Source: Candidatus Wolfebacteria bacterium RIFOXYB1_FULL_54_12 (GTDB taxonomy: Bacteria; Patescibacteriota; Minisyncoccia; UBA6257; UBA9933). Taken from it: a stretch of 64,000 bases of DNA. The stretch is from assembly GCA_001793895.1 (NCBI GenBank), contig MGIT01000001.1, forward strand, positions 106,508 to 170,507. Reading direction: 5' to 3'. A model generated the notes under the pieces. It ran no database searches, had not been told where the DNA came from, and saw nothing but the letters and a program-made list of their open reading frames with translations. The translations under genes and the position numbers were made by a program. This document shows, piece by piece, positions 531 through 53,290 of the stretch (the stretch's first letter is position 1; each line of letters opens with the position of its first letter).

Positions 531-812
531 GTCCTTTTAATCACCGACGCCCTCTCTTTGTCATCCTGAACTCGTTTCAGGATCTTATTGTCCATAAACG
601 AGATTCCGGCTCGTAGGCCGGAATGACAGCTCCTAACTCAAATCCCTTATAGAATACCCGTTAAACGTACCTTTGTCATCTTTCTTGCAATGTATCGACG
701 TTCAACGTCGATACAATCAATATTTGCGTCTTGCAATAACGCAAATATTGCCATTATTTAGCCATTACTTGCTTAAATTCAATTGAGCGACATCGAATGT
801 CGCTCATATTCA

Positions 813-1958
813 TCATAAATTCAAATCCCCATTCGCCTCAATTTTATACTTCTTGCCACGCAAATAGTCGATATATCCCGAAACGGCAATCATCAACGCA
901 TTATCGGTAGAAAATTCGCTCACGATCAACAGTGGTCGATCTTTCTTTAGCGTGAACTTCTTTTCGATTGCTTCCGTAAACAAAGCACGCAAGGTGCGGT
1001 TGGCCGAAACTCCGCCCGAGATCATAATGGACTTCGCACCGAATTCTTCTACCGCGCGGAGCGTCTTTTTGATCAGTACATCCGCCGCCGCCTTTTGAAA
1101 ACTCGCGGCAATATCCGCTTTCGGAATACTTTTCCCCGCTTTCGTCAGATCGCGGATATAATACAGCACAGAGGTCTTCAGGCCGGAAAAACTGAAATTA
1201 TAATTTTTATGCCCGATCATCGGACGCGGGAAATCGATCGCCATCGGGTTGCCATCTTTCGCCAAGCGTTCGATTTCAGGCCCGCCCGGATACGGGAGGC
1301 CAATCAAACGCGCAACCTTGTCGAACGCCTCCCCCACCGCATCGTCAACCGTCTCGCCCAATTTTTTAAAATGGGTCAGGTCGTCCATTCTCAACAAAAT
1401 GGTATGACCCCCGCTGATGATCAACGCGATCGCGGGGAATATCCCCGCATTGTCATTCCCGCGGAGGCGGGAATCCACATCCTTACTTACCAAAAAACTA
1501 TATAAGTGCCCCTCCAAATGATTAGTGGGCACCAGCGGCTTGCCATATTTGGCCGCAAGCTCCTTTGCAAATTCAATGCCGGTCCACAATGCAGGTTCCA
1601 AACCAGGCCCAACGGTCACGGTAATGAAATCTACCCGATTCATAAAATCAGCCTCCCCCGCATTGTCATTCCCGCCCTTCTCTTTGTCATTCCCGCGGAG
1701 GCGGGAATCCACCACTATTTTATCAACAATCTCTTTAAATAATAGTGGCAAATTCTCCAAATGCGCGCGCTTTGCCAATCCCGGCACTACGCCGCCATAC
1801 GGCTGGTGCAGCTTGATCTGCGACGCGACCACATCGCCATGTACCTCAAACTTCGGCTTTTCCAAACCCCCGCTCGCCGTAACAAAAGAAAGGGCTGTTT
1901 CATCACAGCTCGTTTCAATCGACAAGATATACACCTTTTGTTTCTTCTCTAAAGACAT
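813..1958 (-). CDS. tsaD: tRNA N6-adenosine threonylcarbamoyltransferase TsaD (Kae1/Gcp family), with two in-frame repeat-derived insertions
   Basis: Conserved motifs VGPGL, HLEGHL, ISGGHT and the C-terminal GGVSAN. Peptides DSRLRGND(K/N)... come from the palindromic repeat at 1444-1476 and 1656-1711. Confidence 0.85.
   Translation of the reverse strand: MSLEKKQKVYILSIETSCDETALSFVTASGGLEKPKFEVHGDVVASQIKLHQPYGGVVPGLAKRAHLENLPLLFKEIVDKIVVDSRLRGNDKEKGGNDNAGEADFMNRVDFITVTVGPGLEPALWTGIEFAKELAAKYGKPLVPTNHLEGHLYSFLVSKDVDSRLRGNDNAGIFPAIALIISGGHTILLRMDDLTHFKKLGETVDDAVGEAFDKVARLIGLPYPGGPEIERLAKDGNPMAIDFPRPMIGHKNYNFSFSGLKTSVLYYIRDLTKAGKSIPKADIAASFQKAAADVLIKKTLRAVEEFGAKSIMISGGVSANRTLRALFTEAIEKKFTLKKDRPLLIVSEFSTDNALMIAVSGYIDYLRGKKYKIEANGDLNL
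1444..1476. repeat. Palindromic hairpin repeat (GTCATTCCCGCGGAGGCGGGAATC unit) inside the tsaD coding sequence
   Basis: The identical core occurs at about 15 other intergenic loci in the window. Confidence 0.8.
1656..1711. repeat. Palindromic hairpin repeat, 1.5 copies, inside the tsaD coding sequence
   Basis: Sequence gtcattcccgcccttctctttgtcattcccgcggaggcgggaatc. Confidence 0.8.
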
Positions 1959-2079
1959 AGCGAAATATATTTTAGCTTATCGCACCTTGCAGAACAATGC
2001 AAAAATCCATTAGCCATAAAGAAGAGGGCTTTAGCCCTCTTCTTATCCATAAACTATGAACTGTTGGCTGTGAACTTTT

Positions 2080-2376
2080 TTATATCCCCCAATGTCGTAC
2101 TCCTTTCTTTTCATAGCGGATGATGCCGGAAAGCACCAGCCCTACGCCCAAAAAACCGAACAGGTTAATAACGATCAATGCAATGTTGTGCAACAAAACG
2201 CTGTACAGTAGCAACACAAAATATCCGAATGAAAGGATGCTGTAGGTCAACAACGAAACATCCTTTGCACTGCGCCGTTTATATATTTTTAACGCTTGCG
2301 GAATATTGGCCAAACCCATAACAATTCCCATGAGTCCCGCCAATGAAGCAAATAGTTGAGTAAAGTCGATCATCAA
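2080..2376 (-). CDS. Small 3-TM membrane protein, possible PQ-loop/SemiSWEET-type transporter
   Basis: 98 aa, three hydrophobic segments, PQ motif (NIPQALKIYKRRSAKDVS) after TM1. Confidence 0.45.
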   Translation of the reverse strand: MMIDFTQLFASLAGLMGIVMGLANIPQALKIYKRRSAKDVSLLTYSILSFGYFVLLLYSVLLHNIALIVINLFGFLGVGLVLSGIIRYEKKGVRHWGI

Positions 2377-2379
2377 TTT

Positions 2380-2460
2380 CTGTCATTCCCGTCCGCCAGC
2401 CGGCGGAGGAATCTATTTATAGAGTACTGGATTCCGGCTCGGAGGCCGGAATGACAATGC
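2380..2460. repeat. Pair of palindromic hairpin repeats in inverted orientation (GTCATTCC...GGAATGAC)
   Basis: Sequence ctgtcattcccgtccgccagccggcggaggaatc ... ggattccggctcggaggccggaatgacaatg. Confidence 0.8.
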
Positions 2461-2548
2461 GGTGCCTGCAATAAGCAAAATGCCCATGTGGTTGAAGGAG
2501 GATAAAAAGAGCCCTCCTCCTGATGCCACATGGGCATTTTGCGATCAG

Positions 2549-51535: not shown

Positions 51536-51572
51536 TTCTGTCATTCCCGCGGAGGCGGGAATCCATTACCAT
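51536..51572. repeat. Palindromic hairpin repeat
   Basis: Sequence tgtcattcccgcggaggcgggaatccat. Confidence 0.8.
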
Positions 51573-51714
51573 TATGATAGCAAAAACGAGCCAAAAAAGC
51601 CAGCGGCCAGAGGAGTAAAGCCCCTTCAAAACAACCGGGACGCTACAACAAAAAAAGCCCGATGGCACACCCTATAAAGGTGCCCACCGGGCTTTGCCCT
51701 AAAAAGAAAGGGGG

Positions 51715-52329
51715 CTATTCCAATGCCAACGGGATGCAGGAAGGGACGTCTATTTCACAACCCTCCCGATCCAAACAGATCGTGGTCCAATTGACCTCCG
51801 GCGAATATGATTTTCCAATGATCAAGCAACCCGTCGCCAGCACATTGCCCTCAGTCAGCTCATTCGGAAACTTGGACCGTTTATTACTTCGCAGGGCAAT
51901 CGGAAGTCGAGGAGCCAACTCCACCCAGCCGGTTTTATCAAGACGGATAAGAACCGAGCTATTAAACCCCCTGCGCGGAGCTTCAACGACGATCTCACCA
52001 CTACCTGTTAAAATATCTCCCGGCATAAGCGCCCGCGGCTGGGAAATTGTCGGCGTGCGCAACATGCTTGAACCGTTGCTCTTTTGCCTCTCGTAATATT
52101 CGCGAAGATCGTATGAACGCTCGTGGATCTCGTCGGGCCAACCGGGAGTTTCCAGCTCGGCCAGTCTTCCCGCTCTCATAAGGATCATTGTATTGCTTTT
52201 GCTATCAGCAAAAACGATCCCGACATGATCGCAGGCCTTGTTAGTCCGGATGACGCAATGCTTTCCTTTGTGCTCGCCCGAAATAATACGAAATACCTTA
52301 CTGTCCGGCCTAATGATAGACATGCCCAC
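51715..52329 (-). CDS. Hypothetical protein
   Basis: 204 aa. No recognisable motifs. Confidence 0.35.
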   Translation of the reverse strand: MGMSIIRPDSKVFRIISGEHKGKHCVIRTNKACDHVGIVFADSKSNTMILMRAGRLAELETPGWPDEIHERSYDLREYYERQKSNGSSMLRTPTISQPRALMPGDILTGSGEIVVEAPRRGFNSSVLIRLDKTGWVELAPRLPIALRSNKRSKFPNELTEGNVLATGCLIIGKSYSPEVNWTTICLDREGCEIDVPSCIPLALE

Positions 52330-52426
52330 ACCCTCCTCTTTCTATGGATATATATGTAAAATAAGAGCTAACTCAAACTAACACCTGCGTTGCGCACTGT
52401 CAAACGATATTTAAAAAAATATTTTG

Positions 52427-52497
52427 AGCGGGTAAAGGGAATCGAACCCTCGCTTCAACCTTGGGAAGGTTGCGCACTACCACTATGCAATACCCGC
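52427..52497 (-). tRNA. tRNA-Gly (anticodon CCC)
   Basis: Reverse complement GCGGGTATTGCATAGTGGTAGTGCGCAACCTTCCCAAGGTTGAAGCGAGGGTTCGATTCCCTTTACCCGCT. U73 discriminator. Confidence 0.8.
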
Positions 52498-52839
52498 AAA
52501 AACGATACAGGCATTATAAAGAACAACCGGACAAAAGTGAAGTCATGGAAATAAAAAAACGACCTCTATGGTCGACGCGAATAAAGAAAACAAACCCGGT
52601 TGATGGCGATCGAACGAACCCAGTATTCCACGCAAGAAGAATGTAAGAATTCCCATATGAAATTGTCTGCCCATGCGCACAATAAAATACTGTATTTAGT
52701 ATAGGGCAACCAAATAAGATATACAACACCCGCACACCTTTTCTGTAACCCCGGCGGAGCTCGCCACGTGGAAAGTAGAAACTTTCTTTACGTGGGCCGG
52801 AGGAGTCCAGCGTTTTCCGCGATAGCGGTAGCTGGACAT

Positions 52840-53290
52840 TCAGACCCTAACAATGCCGGGAATGACGATGCGAGATTGGGTGTCATCCCCGTCCGTCCGC
52901 CAGCCGGCGGACGGAGGGATCCATGGTTTTTGCAGTAGTAGGGCTGGGATACCCAGACTCTGGATTCCCGTTTTCACGGGAATGACAATACCGAGGTGAC
53001 AAAGCAAGAAAATACTCATACAAAAAGGTTGTGACCCCGGCGGAGCTCGCCACGTGGTCCGCCAATGGCGGATCGGAATGACACCATCCACGCATTGTCA
53101 TGTCGACGCCTACCCGCCTTGGTCGGGAAGGCCGGTATCCGGTGTCTTGCATTGTCATTCCGAGAGTAGCGGAGCGGAGCCAAGGAATCTGTTTTTAGTA
53201 CGGATCCCTGCTCCACCTCCGCCAGCTGGCGGATATGGCGGCACGCGGTCGATTTAATTCCGCTTCGCTATATTGCACTCGGGATGACAG
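52840..53290. repeat. Dense array of palindromic hairpin repeats in a roughly 1-kb ORF-free region
   Basis: At least six GTCAT...ATGAC-type units. A 24-nt direct repeat accccggcggagctcgccacgtgg occurs at 52748 and 53033. Confidence 0.8.

What the first reader, a model, noticed from the sequence alone, without database searches (positions are those of the whole stretch)
540..53290. A genome-wide family of short hairpin repeats with GTCAT(T)CC...GGAATGAC termini fills nearly every intergenic region
At least 16 loci carry one or more copies of a unit of about 24-26 nt. The unit is GTCAT(T/C)C, then a 5-bp stem, a 4-6 nt loop and the complementary stem, then (G)GAAT/GATC. Examples are GTCATTCCCGCGGAGGCGGGAATC, GTCATTCCGGCCTCCGAGCCGGAATC and GTCATCCTGAACTCGTTTCAGGATC. 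Units often come in inverted pairs, which gives the GTCATTCC...GGAATGAC palindromes.

Loci: 560-626, 1444-1476, 1656-1711, 2380-2460, 15462-15700, 16118-16195, 17280-17365, 22060-22185, 29020-29095, 30850-30970, 37740-37850, 45320-45505, 47795-47920, 51536-51572, 52840-53290.

Some copies are exact. The 25-mer GTCATCCTGAACTCGTTTCAGGATC is identical at 563, 45346 and 47833, and 15468-15530 equals 29024-29090. That argues for recent mobility or gene conversion. Nothing in the window resembles a RAYT, transposase or integrase. The behaviour recalls REP elements or Rickettsia RPEs, but the sequence differs. This density is unusual for a bacterial genome.
Basis: seen in the sequence. Interest (0 to 1): 0.7.

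Follow-up and report, generated by a model that had tools for sequence, protein, structure and literature searches.

The report
Ssn-type hairpin repeats in Wolfebacteria
The short hairpin repeats are real and belong to a repeat family described in 2025, the DNA sites cut by small Ssn single-strand nucleases and first seen as Neisseria dRS3/NTS; here they crowd the tiny genome of an uncultured Wolfebacteria bacterium and even sit in frame inside an essential gene.

Summary
The window holds about 30 oriented copies of one unit: TGTCAT, an 8-bp palindrome (ATYCC...GGRAT), then C. They lie in 15 loci between 554 and 53,290, far above chance.

They are not a new repeat class. Nine copies match the 28-nt Neisseria NTS consensus with at most 3 mismatches, one with a single mismatch. 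All carry the three features that Chenal et al. 2025 showed matter for the GIY-YIG single-strand DNA nuclease SsnA: the GTC head, the palindrome and the 3' C. They are Ssn-related motifs (SRMs).

The genome is Candidatus Wolfebacteria RIFOXYB1_FULL_54_12 (CPR/Patescibacteria). Sister Wolfebacteria carry intact 93-95 aa Ssn genes bracketed by inverted SRMs. One relative has a decayed ssn at the site syntenic with the window's largest cluster. Another syntenic relative has no SRMs in 41 kb.

No ssn gene lies in the roughly 80 kb of this genome that I could read, so the cognate nuclease here is inferred.

New details:
- Two loci sit in frame inside tsaD, at insertion hot spots shared among orthologues.
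- About a quarter of intergenic regions are occupied, not "nearly every" one.
- Both 25-mers recur exactly in many phyla, often beside ssn genes.

Verdict: a new member of a known kind.

The parts
554..633 (.). Composite element: unit 560-584 (+, ATCCTGAA stem), an 18-nt spacer, then unit 603-627 (-, ATTCCGGC stem). It lies between the tsaD stop and the ftsW start.
   Evidence: Folds as DNA with z = -4.5. The tsaD-ftsW region that contains it is 100% identical in strain L259.
1446..1481 (+). Solo unit inside tsaD (insertion site 2). It is read in frame as ...DSRLRGNDNAG... on the minus strand.
   Evidence: It is absent from the 353-aa orthologues and from solved TsaD structures.
1660..1715 (+). 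A truncated unit (1665-1680) plus a full unit (1686-1710) inside tsaD (insertion site 1). Read in frame as ...VDSRLRGNDKEKGGNDNAGEA...
813..1958 (-). tsaD, 381 aa against a 353-aa baseline. It is the host gene of the two in-frame insertions.
   Evidence: Pfam TsaD, E = 1e-71. PDB alignments. Orthologue alignment A2.
2376..2461 (.). Composite: long-loop unit 2382-2413 (+) and unit 2431-2455 (-). It sits 9 nt upstream of the start of the PQ-loop gene.
   Evidence: It forms the left edge of the block that diverges from strain L259.
15466..15659 (.). Cluster of four units: 15472-15496 (+), 15502-15537 (-, degenerate), 15567-15616 (+, long loop) and 15629-15653 (-). It lies between the sigma-factor gene and rplU.
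   Evidence: and (family D5).
16112..16194 (.). Composite: unit 16118-16142 (+) and long-loop unit 16151-16194 (-). Together with the previous cluster it brackets rplU.
17282..17361 (.). Composite: unit 17288-17313 (+) and unit 17331-17355 (-).
22054..22178 (.). A degenerate long unit (22054-22110, +) and unit 22150-22172 (-), next to tRNA-Ala.
29022..29093 (.). Composite of two identical inverted units, 29028-29052 (+) and 29063-29087 (-). As single-stranded DNA it folds into a 26-bp hairpin.
   Evidence: Fold energy -34.5 kcal/mol, z = -13.9.
30848..30990 (.). Unit 30854-30878 (+), whose GTCAT overlaps the minus-strand ATG of the DUF87 ATPase gene, followed by degenerate units.
37737..37851 (.). 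Composite of two long-loop variants, 37743-37777 (+) and 37790-37845 (-).
45322..45502 (.). Cluster: truncated unit at 45328, composite 45345-45411, long-loop unit 45427-45458 (+) and unit 45473-45497 (+). The last is the best NTS match, with 1 mismatch. The cluster fills a gap that is 10 nt long in relative L244.
47792..47909 (.). A perfect palindromic double unit (47798-47823) plus composite 47838-47903. It is absent from relatives L244 and L245.
51534..51569 (+). Solo unit upstream of gyrB. The relative L244 has unrelated sequence at this position.
52859..53290 (.). The largest cluster, about 8 units, many of them degenerate or long-loop. Clear units are 52964-52986 (-) and 53148-53195 (+). 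The site is syntenic with the SRM-flanked decayed ssn gene of relative L245.

Best explanation
The repeats are Ssn-related motifs (SRMs). This is the hairpin repeat family known in Neisseria as dRS3/NTS.

Anatomy. Each unit is a directional single-strand DNA signal: TGTC, an 8-bp palindrome beginning AT(T/C)CC, a 4-6 nt loop (longer in variants), then C. In Neisseria, and for three other tested homologues, a 94-aa single-domain GIY-YIG nuclease (SsnA) binds this hairpin only in single-stranded DNA and cuts a few bases upstream.

What the sequences show:
- The window's units carry every nucleotide feature found to matter for SsnA.
- Close Wolfebacteria relatives encode intact Ssn-type genes bracketed by inverted SRMs.
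- A relative has a decayed ssn at the site syntenic with the window's largest cluster.
- SRM load differs sharply between sister lineages.
- Units can land and persist inside a coding sequence when they keep the reading frame.

What is inferred:
- This genome encodes its own Ssn somewhere outside the roughly 80 kb I read.
- That enzyme nicks SRM hairpins when DNA is single-stranded, during uptake through the adjacent type IV pilus or competence system, during replication, or during repair.
- The nicking shapes where recombination tracts end.
- The SRM-ssn-SRM cassette, or its nuclease, drives the spread of solo and paired units into intergenic DNA.
For: Sequence identity to the published motif:
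- 9 sites match CGTCATTCCCGCGMAVGCGGGAATCYRG with at most 3 mismatches against 0 expected.
- The strict SRM expression gives 4 hits against 0.13 expected.
- TGTCAT is invariant and the 3' C is present in 21 of 23 units.
- Chenal et al. showed that the GTC head governs cleavage and the 3' C governs binding (PMC11893778).

Hairpin support:
- 99.5% of cells are paired, with compensatory changes at 5 of 8 pairs.
- DNA folds give z-scores of -4 to -14.

Link to ssn genes:
- In Wolfebacteria RIFOXYD12_FULL_48_21 and its relatives, the 93-94 aa GIY-YIG genes P0032 and P0064 are flanked within 20 nt by inverted SRMs.
- Their catalytic residues sit at the spacing Y, Y+11 and Y+58, as in SsnA Y6/Y17/E64 (read from the P0064 sequence).
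- L245 has a stop-interrupted ssn between two SRMs at the site syntenic with window 52.8-53.3 kb.
- In 236 loci chosen only because they contain one of the window's two exact 25-mers, 17 have an Ssn-like gene within 150 nt.

Lineage contrast:
- The window has about 3.75-4.7 units per 10 kb (24 by the strict palindrome scan, about 30 by the model).
- The syntenic relative contig_97727 has 0 in 41 kb.
- L245 has 2 in 20 kb.

Context:
- A type IV pilus cluster lies just right of the window.
- Competence genes are common in Patescibacteria (PMC12455944).
- One strain mosaic has its divergent block bounded on the left by an SRM pair, and its right edge lies about 100 nt from an SRM.
Against: - No ssn gene is present in the window or in 9 kb to the left and 7 kb to the right of it (tblastn).
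- The only GIY-YIG-like ORF, 53477-53938, is not an Ssn (hhalign probability 2%). It is also conserved in the SRM-free relative.
- Most units fail the strict published SRM expression, because their GGAG or longer loops break its loop rule.
- Chenal et al. report that 19% of SRM-rich genomes lack a detectable SsnA.
- Assignment of the Wolfebacteria proteins to CDD family cd10448 could not be tested.
- The biological role outside Neisseria is unknown.
- The recombination-boundary observation is a single case.
Confidence: 0.75

Rival explanations
1. The SRM-ssn-SRM cassette is itself a selfish mobile element. It would be a GIY-YIG-driven counterpart of IS200/IS605 and REP/RAYT. The solo and paired SRMs would be its non-autonomous offspring, spreading for their own sake and not for any host function. 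This overlaps with the best explanation and differs only in who benefits.
For: - The IS-like architecture, with inverted SRMs abutting ssn, appears in L247, L249 and L245 and in other phyla.
- Expansion is lineage-specific, with empty syntenic sites in relatives.
- Units have inserted into tsaD.
- Identical 25-mers occur in more than 15 phyla and in 20 viral contigs.
- Chenal et al. raise the same hypothesis.
- GIY-YIG genes were reported as horizontally transferred from Patescibacteria.
Against: - No strand-transfer or ligation activity is known for a 94-aa GIY-YIG nuclease.
- No target-site duplication or clean insertion boundary could be defined.
- No polymorphic insertion was seen among samples of this strain.
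Confidence: 0.3
2. The hairpins act at the RNA level, as transcription terminators, mRNA stabilisers or processing sites. The nuclease association would be incidental.
For: - Most units lie between co-directional genes.
- The stems are stable.
Against: - No T-run follows the hairpins (alignment A1).
- Separate classical terminator-like hairpins with T-runs exist beside them, for example 2469-2540, 19220-19264 (D13) and 48040-48080.
- Units occur in both orientations, upstream of start codons and inside a coding sequence.
- Variation in the stem is strictly Watson-Crick (with the selection caveat).
- SsnA does not bind RNA.
- No Rfam family is hit.
Confidence: 0.07
3. They are REP/BIME elements mobilised by a RAYT (Y1 transposase), or MITEs mobilised by a DDE transposase encoded elsewhere in the genome.
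For: - Inverted pairs resemble BIMEs, and the composites have TGTCAT...ATGACA termini.
Against: - There is no GTAG-type REP head.
- No Y1_Tnp or DDE transposase domain appears in the Pfam calls for the roughly 80 kb read.
- No target-site duplications flank the composites.
- The same units abut GIY-YIG genes, not transposases, in relatives and in other phyla.
Confidence: 0.03
4. The repeats are an assembly or binning artefact, from collapse or chimeric joins at repeats.
For: The sequence comes from a metagenome assembly.
Against: Identical sequence across 12-22 kb stretches occurs in independent assemblies by ENA, JGI and NCBI from different samples. The units sit in otherwise colinear, syntenic gene order.
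Confidence: 0.01

Closest known systems
Ssn-related motifs (SRM) and Neisseria Transformation Sequence (NTS), with the SsnA GIY-YIG single-strand DNA nuclease (Chenal et al., Nat Commun 2025, PMC11893778)
   Same: - The same core sequence, TGTCATTCCCGCG-loop-CGCGGGAATC(C/T)AG, with one copy only 1 mismatch from the 28-nt NTS consensus.
- The same GTC head, palindrome and 3' C.
- The same SRM-ssn-SRM gene architecture in sister genomes.
- High copy number in a host-dependent, small-genome bacterium.
   Different: - The host is a CPR/Patescibacteria bacterium. The term Patescibacteria does not occur in the paper, whose survey used RefSeq representative genomes.
- Several stem variants (ATTCCCGC, ATTCCGGC, ATCCTGAA, ATCCCGTG) are mixed within single composites.
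- Units are mostly arranged as tight inverted pairs with 12-20 nt spacers.
- Two loci lie in frame inside an essential gene.
- No ssn gene was found in the part of this genome that could be read.
Neisseria dRS3 repeats and NIMEs (Neisseria intergenic mosaic elements)
   Same: The ATTCCC-N8-GGGAAT core is present 9 times. The repeats form clustered intergenic arrays and are associated with variable or recombining regions.
   Different: - This is not Neisseria, and there is no DNA uptake sequence.
- NIMEs are 50-150 bp repeat units bounded by dRS3 (my own knowledge). Here the units pair directly.
- The role of dRS3 as an attachment site for a phage recombinase was not seen or tested here.
REP/BIME elements with RAYT transposases
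   Same: Short extragenic palindromes, a directional head, inverted pairs, and recognition as single-strand hairpins by a small dedicated enzyme whose gene is bracketed by the repeats. This is how the system appears to work.
   Different: The enzyme fold is different (GIY-YIG, not HUH/Y1). There is no GTAG head and no RAYT. It is an analogy of mechanism, not membership.
Rickettsia palindromic elements (RPE)
   Same: Palindromic repeats that insert in frame into protein-coding genes of a reduced genome and are tolerated as extra surface peptides.
   Different: RPEs are about 100-150 bp (my own knowledge), while these units are about 36 nt. The sequences are different. Chenal et al. list Rickettsia among SRM-rich genera, but the relation between SRMs and RPEs was not examined here.

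Membership tests
SRM / NTS (Ssn-related motif) | A GTC trinucleotide immediately 5' of the palindrome (governs cleavage) | tested here: met
   TGTCAT is invariant in all 23 aligned units. The requirement is described in PMC11893778.
SRM / NTS (Ssn-related motif) | A hairpin-forming semi-palindrome of the ATTCC...GGAAT type | tested here: met
   99.5% of cells paired, with compensatory changes at 5 of 8 pairs. DNA fold z-scores of -4 to -14.
SRM / NTS (Ssn-related motif) | A cytosine immediately 3' of the palindrome (most critical for binding) | tested here: met
   C in 21 of 23 units. The two exceptions are the two strands of one overlapping double palindrome at 47798-47823.
SRM / NTS (Ssn-related motif) | A match to the published consensus or search expression | tested here: inconclusive
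   The NTS consensus gives 9 sites with at most 3 mismatches against 0 expected. The strict SRM expression gives only 4 sites against 0.13 expected. Most units fail its loop rule.
SRM / NTS (Ssn-related motif) | An Ssn (cd10448-type, about 94 aa GIY-YIG) gene in the same genome, typically flanked by SRMs | tested here: inconclusive
   None in the window or flanks, about 80 kb in total. Present and SRM-flanked in sister Wolfebacteria. Decayed at the syntenic site in L245. The cd10448 assignment itself could not be tested. Pfam GIY-YIG, protein size and catalytic spacing all agree.
SRM / NTS (Ssn-related motif) | Strand-specific binding and cleavage of single-stranded DNA by the cognate Ssn | not testable with these tools
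   Needs purified protein and oligonucleotides.
SRM / NTS (Ssn-related motif) | Hundreds of copies genome-wide | not testable with these tools
   Only about 80 kb of the genome was accessible. The density is about 4-5 units per 10 kb.
Neisseria dRS3 / NIME | An ATTCCC-N8-GGGAAT core | tested here: met
   9 sites against 0.03 expected.
Neisseria dRS3 / NIME | A Neisseria genome context (DNA uptake sequences, RS units between dRS3 copies) | tested here: not met
   No GCCGTCTGAA. The organism is Candidatus Wolfebacteria. Spacers are only 12-20 nt.
REP / RAYT | A GTAG-type head and an associated Y1 (RAYT) transposase | tested here: not met
   The head is TGTC. No Y1_Tnp domain appears among the Pfam calls.
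MITE | Terminal inverted repeats plus target-site duplications, derived from a resident IS | tested here: not met
   The composites have inverted termini but no flanking duplications. No IS is present in the region read.
Rickettsia palindromic elements | A palindromic element of about 100-150 bp inserted in frame in coding sequences | tested here: inconclusive
   In-frame insertion is met for tsaD. Size and sequence are not met: the unit is about 36 nt.
Intrinsic terminator | A GC-rich hairpin followed by a T-run, placed at 3' ends of genes | tested here: not met
   No T-run in the 3' flanks of A1. Units also lie upstream of starts and inside a coding sequence.

The most novel reading that the evidence does not exclude
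SRM-ssn-SRM is an autonomous single-strand DNA mobile element of a new mechanistic type. A 94-aa GIY-YIG nuclease would do the job that HUH transposases do for IS200/IS605 and REPs.

It would move between phyla, which would explain why identical 25-mers occur in more than 15 phyla and in viral contigs. It would seed non-autonomous hairpins that colonise even essential genes of ultra-small CPR genomes.

Once resident, the hairpins would set the end points of recombination tracts in naturally competent populations.
Probability: 0.3. Interest if true: 0.8.

Novelty: new member of a known kind. Interest (0 to 1): 0.45.

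Why it matters
The Ssn/SRM system was described only in 2025, and its role outside Neisseria is open. A streamlined, host-dependent CPR genome of roughly 1 Mb (my own estimate) spends about a fifth of its scarce intergenic DNA on these hairpins. 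It also tolerates them inside tsaD. This argues that the system is either strongly selfish or strongly useful.

The Wolfebacteria set offers a natural comparison of four states:
- SRM-rich lineages with intact ssn (RIFOXYD12_FULL_48_21 and relatives).
- The SRM-rich window lineage, whose ssn status is unknown.
- A lineage with a decayed ssn and only its two flanking SRMs.
- An SRM-free syntenic lineage.

Whole-genome counts across these lineages could test whether Ssn drives SRM spread. They could also test whether SRMs mark recombination boundaries in natural populations.

For annotation, these repeats explain recurrent spurious peptides such as ...SRLRGND..., ...IPAEAGIQ... and ...TPAEAGVQ... 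in predicted proteins from metagenome-assembled genomes.

Tried and rejected
1. The ORF at 53477-53938 looked like a candidate nuclease. It has a LexA-type winged helix plus a weak GIY-YIG N-terminal motif (Pfam E = 0.005, below the cut-off) and lies next to the largest cluster. I rejected it for three reasons. The profile comparison with Ssn gives 2% probability. It is a conserved syntenic gene in relatives whether or not they have SRMs. Its position beside the cluster is better explained by the former ssn site upstream, seen in L245.

2. rplU (15750-16073), flanked by clusters on both sides, was briefly suspected to be ssn. It is ribosomal protein L21.

3. I tried to sample the rest of the source genome by scanning metagenomes for the 25-mer I took to be organism-specific. 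That 25-mer proved widespread too, and none of the 118 stretches aligned to the window, so none could be assigned to its genome.

4. Three look-ups of window ORFs failed because the predicted start codons differ from the recorded gene calls.

5. A first motif scan for GIY-YIG genes in the fetched loci was too strict and found none. Relaxed patterns and tblastn then found 22.

6. No clean insertion boundaries or target duplications could be defined. The relatives with empty sites are too divergent in intergenic DNA.

7. One gapped pattern search was mis-specified and is not used.

8. The supplementary tables of Chenal et al. are not held, so I could not check whether any CPR genome was in their lists.

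9. The Neisseria origin suggested by the sequence was rejected.

Full report
**1. The observation**

The motif is real and far above chance.
- GTCATTCC occurs 27 times against 2.75 expected.
- The dRS3-type pattern ATTCCC-N8-GGGAAT occurs 9 times against 0.03 expected.
- The 25-mer GTCATCCTGAACTCGTTTCAGGATC is exact at 560, 45345 and 47838.

I aligned 23 units (A1). TGTCAT is invariant. An 8-bp stem follows, beginning AT(T/C)C, then a 4-6 nt loop, and a C follows the stem in 21 of 23 units. The named stem is paired in 99.5% of cells, and 5 of 8 pairs change on both sides. I had selected the units as perfect palindromes, which inflates the pairing figure and removes G-T pairs by construction.

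A covariance model (R1) run unfiltered over the window recovers the 23 units plus about 7 long-loop variants. No full-length oriented match scores E<0.1 outside 554-53,195.

"15468-15530 equals 29024-29090" is really 61/63 identity. About 13 of roughly 52 intergenic gaps carry units (plus the 30848 locus), or about 22% of intergenic bases by my sum of cluster spans. That is dense, but it is not nearly every gap.

The sequence is 99.85-100% identical in independent ENA, JGI and NCBI assemblies. It is therefore not an assembly artefact.

**2. Anatomy**

Units usually occur as convergent inverted pairs: TGTCAT-hairpin-C, a 12-20 nt spacer, then G-hairpin-ATGACA. These form 60-105 bp composites. 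The two halves often carry different stem variants: ATTCCCGC, ATTCCGGC, ATCCTGAA or ATCCCGTG.

A second subfamily carries an inner TCCGCC-N4-GGCGGA hairpin in its loop (D6).

There are also solo units at 1452, 1686, 45427, 45473 and 51540. Some share a longer 5' flank, (CCC)GCATT.

As single-stranded DNA the units and composites fold well, with z-scores of -4 to -14.

**3. Identity**

The sequence is essentially the Neisseria dRS3/NTS repeat. Chenal et al. (Nat Commun 2025, PMC11893778) define the NTS as CGTCATTCCCGCGMAVGCGGGAATCYRG. They also define a wider class, Ssn-related motifs.

Nine window sites match the NTS with at most 3 mismatches against 0 expected. Site 45472-45499 differs only at the first base.

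That paper shows that SsnA, a 94-aa single-domain GIY-YIG protein, binds the hairpin only as single-stranded DNA. It cuts a few bases upstream, on one strand only, and does not act on double-stranded DNA or RNA. The three bases before the palindrome control cutting. The C after the palindrome is the most important base for binding. The window's units conserve exactly these positions.

The strict published SRM expression catches only 4 units. The common GGAG loop breaks its loop rule.

**4. Organism**

There is no Neisseria DNA uptake sequence. The window is positions 45,330-109,329 of ENA scaffold ANAN16-1 scaffold_93 (coordinates worked out). Its proteins are deposited as Candidatus Wolfebacteria bacterium RIFOXYB1_FULL_54_12 and RIFOXYB2_FULL_49_7. 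This is a CPR/Patescibacteria organism from Rifle groundwater.

**5. The nuclease**

No Ssn-like gene is in the window, or in 9 kb to the left or 7 kb to the right. The Pfam calls for the window and its flanks show no transposase, RAYT or integrase.

Sister Wolfebacteria do have the gene.
- In the RIFOXYD12_FULL_48_21 lineage, the 93-95 aa GIY-YIG genes P0032 and P0064/P0270 each sit between inverted SRMs (L247: 4962-4984 and 5288-5310; L249: 4931-4955 and 5294-5316). A third Ssn-like cluster (P0033/P0271) was not looked at in context. The HTH protein of this lineage falls in the same 90% cluster as the window's.
- The catalytic Tyr, Tyr and Glu of P0064 are spaced as in SsnA Y6/Y17/E64 (read from the sequence).
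- In relative L245 (GCA_003508115.1), the only two SRMs in 20 kb bracket an ssn gene with an in-frame stop (MK*YYVYIL...). It lies between tRNA-Gly and the HTH gene, at the site syntenic with the window's largest cluster, 52.8-53.3 kb.

The winged-helix plus GIY-YIG-like ORF at 53477-53938 is not the partner. Its profile comparison with Ssn gives 2% probability. It is also conserved in the relative that has no SRMs.

**6. Gain and loss**

A syntenic relative (contig_97727, loci L244 and L258, about 80% DNA identity) has no SRM in 41 kb. Gaps that are 10-57 nt long there are 196-309 nt long in the window and consist of SRMs. SRM load is therefore a lineage-specific expansion.

**7. Coding insertions**

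tsaD (813-1958, minus strand) is 381 aa against a 353-aa baseline. The two extra segments...VDSRLRGNDKEKGGNDNAGEA... and ...DSRLRGNDNAG..., are the SRM loci at 1660-1715 and 1446-1481 read in frame. Both are absent from solved TsaD structures.

In an alignment of 15 orthologues the same two positions carry different SRM-derived inserts in different lineages, such as TPAEAGVQEGIDSDLRRNDN, or carry none (DNA). These are recurrent hot spots where only frame-preserving insertions survive. The behaviour resembles Rickettsia RPEs.

**8. Breadth**

The exact 25-mer TGTCATTCCCGCGGAGGCGGGAATC occurs in at least 118 stretches from species-representative genomes of more than 15 phyla, including several CPR groups. 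It also occurs in 20 viral contigs.

The second 25-mer is in at least 118 metagenome stretches.

Among these 236 loci, 17 have an Ssn-like gene within 150 nt of the 25-mer. Both of the window's main stem variants are therefore bona fide ssn-associated motifs.

**9. Function**

The best-supported reading is an Ssn/SRM system. The hairpins form in single-stranded DNA and are nicked by a cognate Ssn encoded elsewhere in the genome.

By analogy with Neisseria, this would trim incoming transforming DNA and set recombination end points. Type IV pilus genes lie just right of the window, and competence genes are common in Patescibacteria (PMC12455944).

One strain comparison fits this reading. L259 is 100% identical to the window genome downstream of tsaD site 2 and 97% identical in PPDK, but only 60-90% identical in between. 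An SRM pair lies at the left edge of that divergent block. This is a single case.

Whether Ssn also spreads the repeats, in the way RAYT is thought to spread REPs, is an open hypothesis. Chenal et al. raise it as well.

**10. Rivals**

- RNA-level terminators are unlikely. No T-runs follow the hairpins, separate terminators exist nearby, units occur in both orientations and inside a coding sequence, and Rfam gives no hit.
- REP/RAYT and MITE models fail on the head sequence, on the lack of a transposase, and on the lack of target duplications.

**11. Verdict**

They are a new member of the SRM family in a new host group, CPR. The added points of interest are the in-frame colonisation of tsaD, the mixed-variant inverted pairs, and a set of sister lineages that could test whether Ssn drives SRM spread.

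Noticed in passing
window 53477-53938 (+): A 153-aa ORF with a LexA-type winged helix and a C-terminal domain that has only a weak GIY-YIG N-terminal motif (GVY...YIGSS). It belongs to a conserved 151-aa family confined to Wolfebacteria-like Patescibacteria and is annotated 'LexA repressor'. It is not related to Ssn.
   Followed up: partly
window 7990-8030, 27328-27387, 31056-31115, 32517-32590, 48010-48040: A second repeat type: tracts of the heptamer GGTTATN. The tract at 27328-27387 lies inside the mnmA coding sequence and reads in frame as ...ATYNLQPITDNKKQETTYSLQ....
   Followed up: partly
window 46340-47092: A 54-nt direct repeat (46340-46393 and 47039-47092, 94% identical) duplicates the 3' end of the short-chain dehydrogenase gene. 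It brackets an extra 211-aa ORF (46395-47030, minus strand) with no Pfam hit. In relative L244, ScpA and the dehydrogenase gene are 27 nt apart, so this looks like a gene-cassette insertion.
   Followed up: partly
window 19220-21934: A 45-nt palindromic repeat (19220-19264 and 21890-21934, 91% identical) brackets the 806-aa MFS/peptidase M28 gene. Its GC content is 0.40 against about 0.50 elsewhere, and it lies next to tRNA-Ala. This is a possible acquired island.
   Followed up: no
window 7608-7651 and 7825-7868: A 44-nt repeat, 95% identical. The second copy overlaps the 3' end of tRNA-Phe. It could be a remnant of an integration into the tRNA gene.
   Followed up: no
window 37866-39957: The phosphoglucomutase-like ORF (37866-38825) has domains II-IV only. 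A NYN-domain ORF (38875-39471) lies just upstream, and beyond it a 112-aa ORF with no family hit. A NYN gene also sits beside tsaD in strain L259.
   Followed up: no
L259 (JGI 3300009031) against window 430-4400: A strain mosaic. L259 is 100% identical from about 100 nt 3' of tsaD SRM site 2 through ftsW and yceG, and 97% identical in PPDK. In between it is only 60-90% identical and carries extra MFS and NYN genes. An SRM pair lies at the left edge of the divergent block, and L259 has different SRM units at the same spot.
   Followed up: partly
L245 9442-9723 (minus strand): An uncalled, decayed Ssn-type gene (MK*YYVYILASKRNGTLYIGVTNDLKRRGYKHK...) between two SRMs in Wolfebacteria GCA_003508115.1. 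It lies at the site syntenic with the window's largest cluster.
   Followed up: yes
L280 14800-21056 (0.8-7 kb right of the window end): A type IV pilus gene cluster: three N-methyl pilins, prepilin peptidase, PilC-like and PilB-like genes. One more SRM pair sits between the last two, at L280 20467-20555.
   Followed up: partly
L260-L279 (IMG/VR contigs): The exact 25-mer TGTCATTCCCGCGGAGGCGGGAATC occurs in 20 predicted viral contigs. None of the fetched stretches contains an Ssn-like gene. Whether these contigs are true phages or host-derived prophage flanks was not checked.
   Followed up: partly
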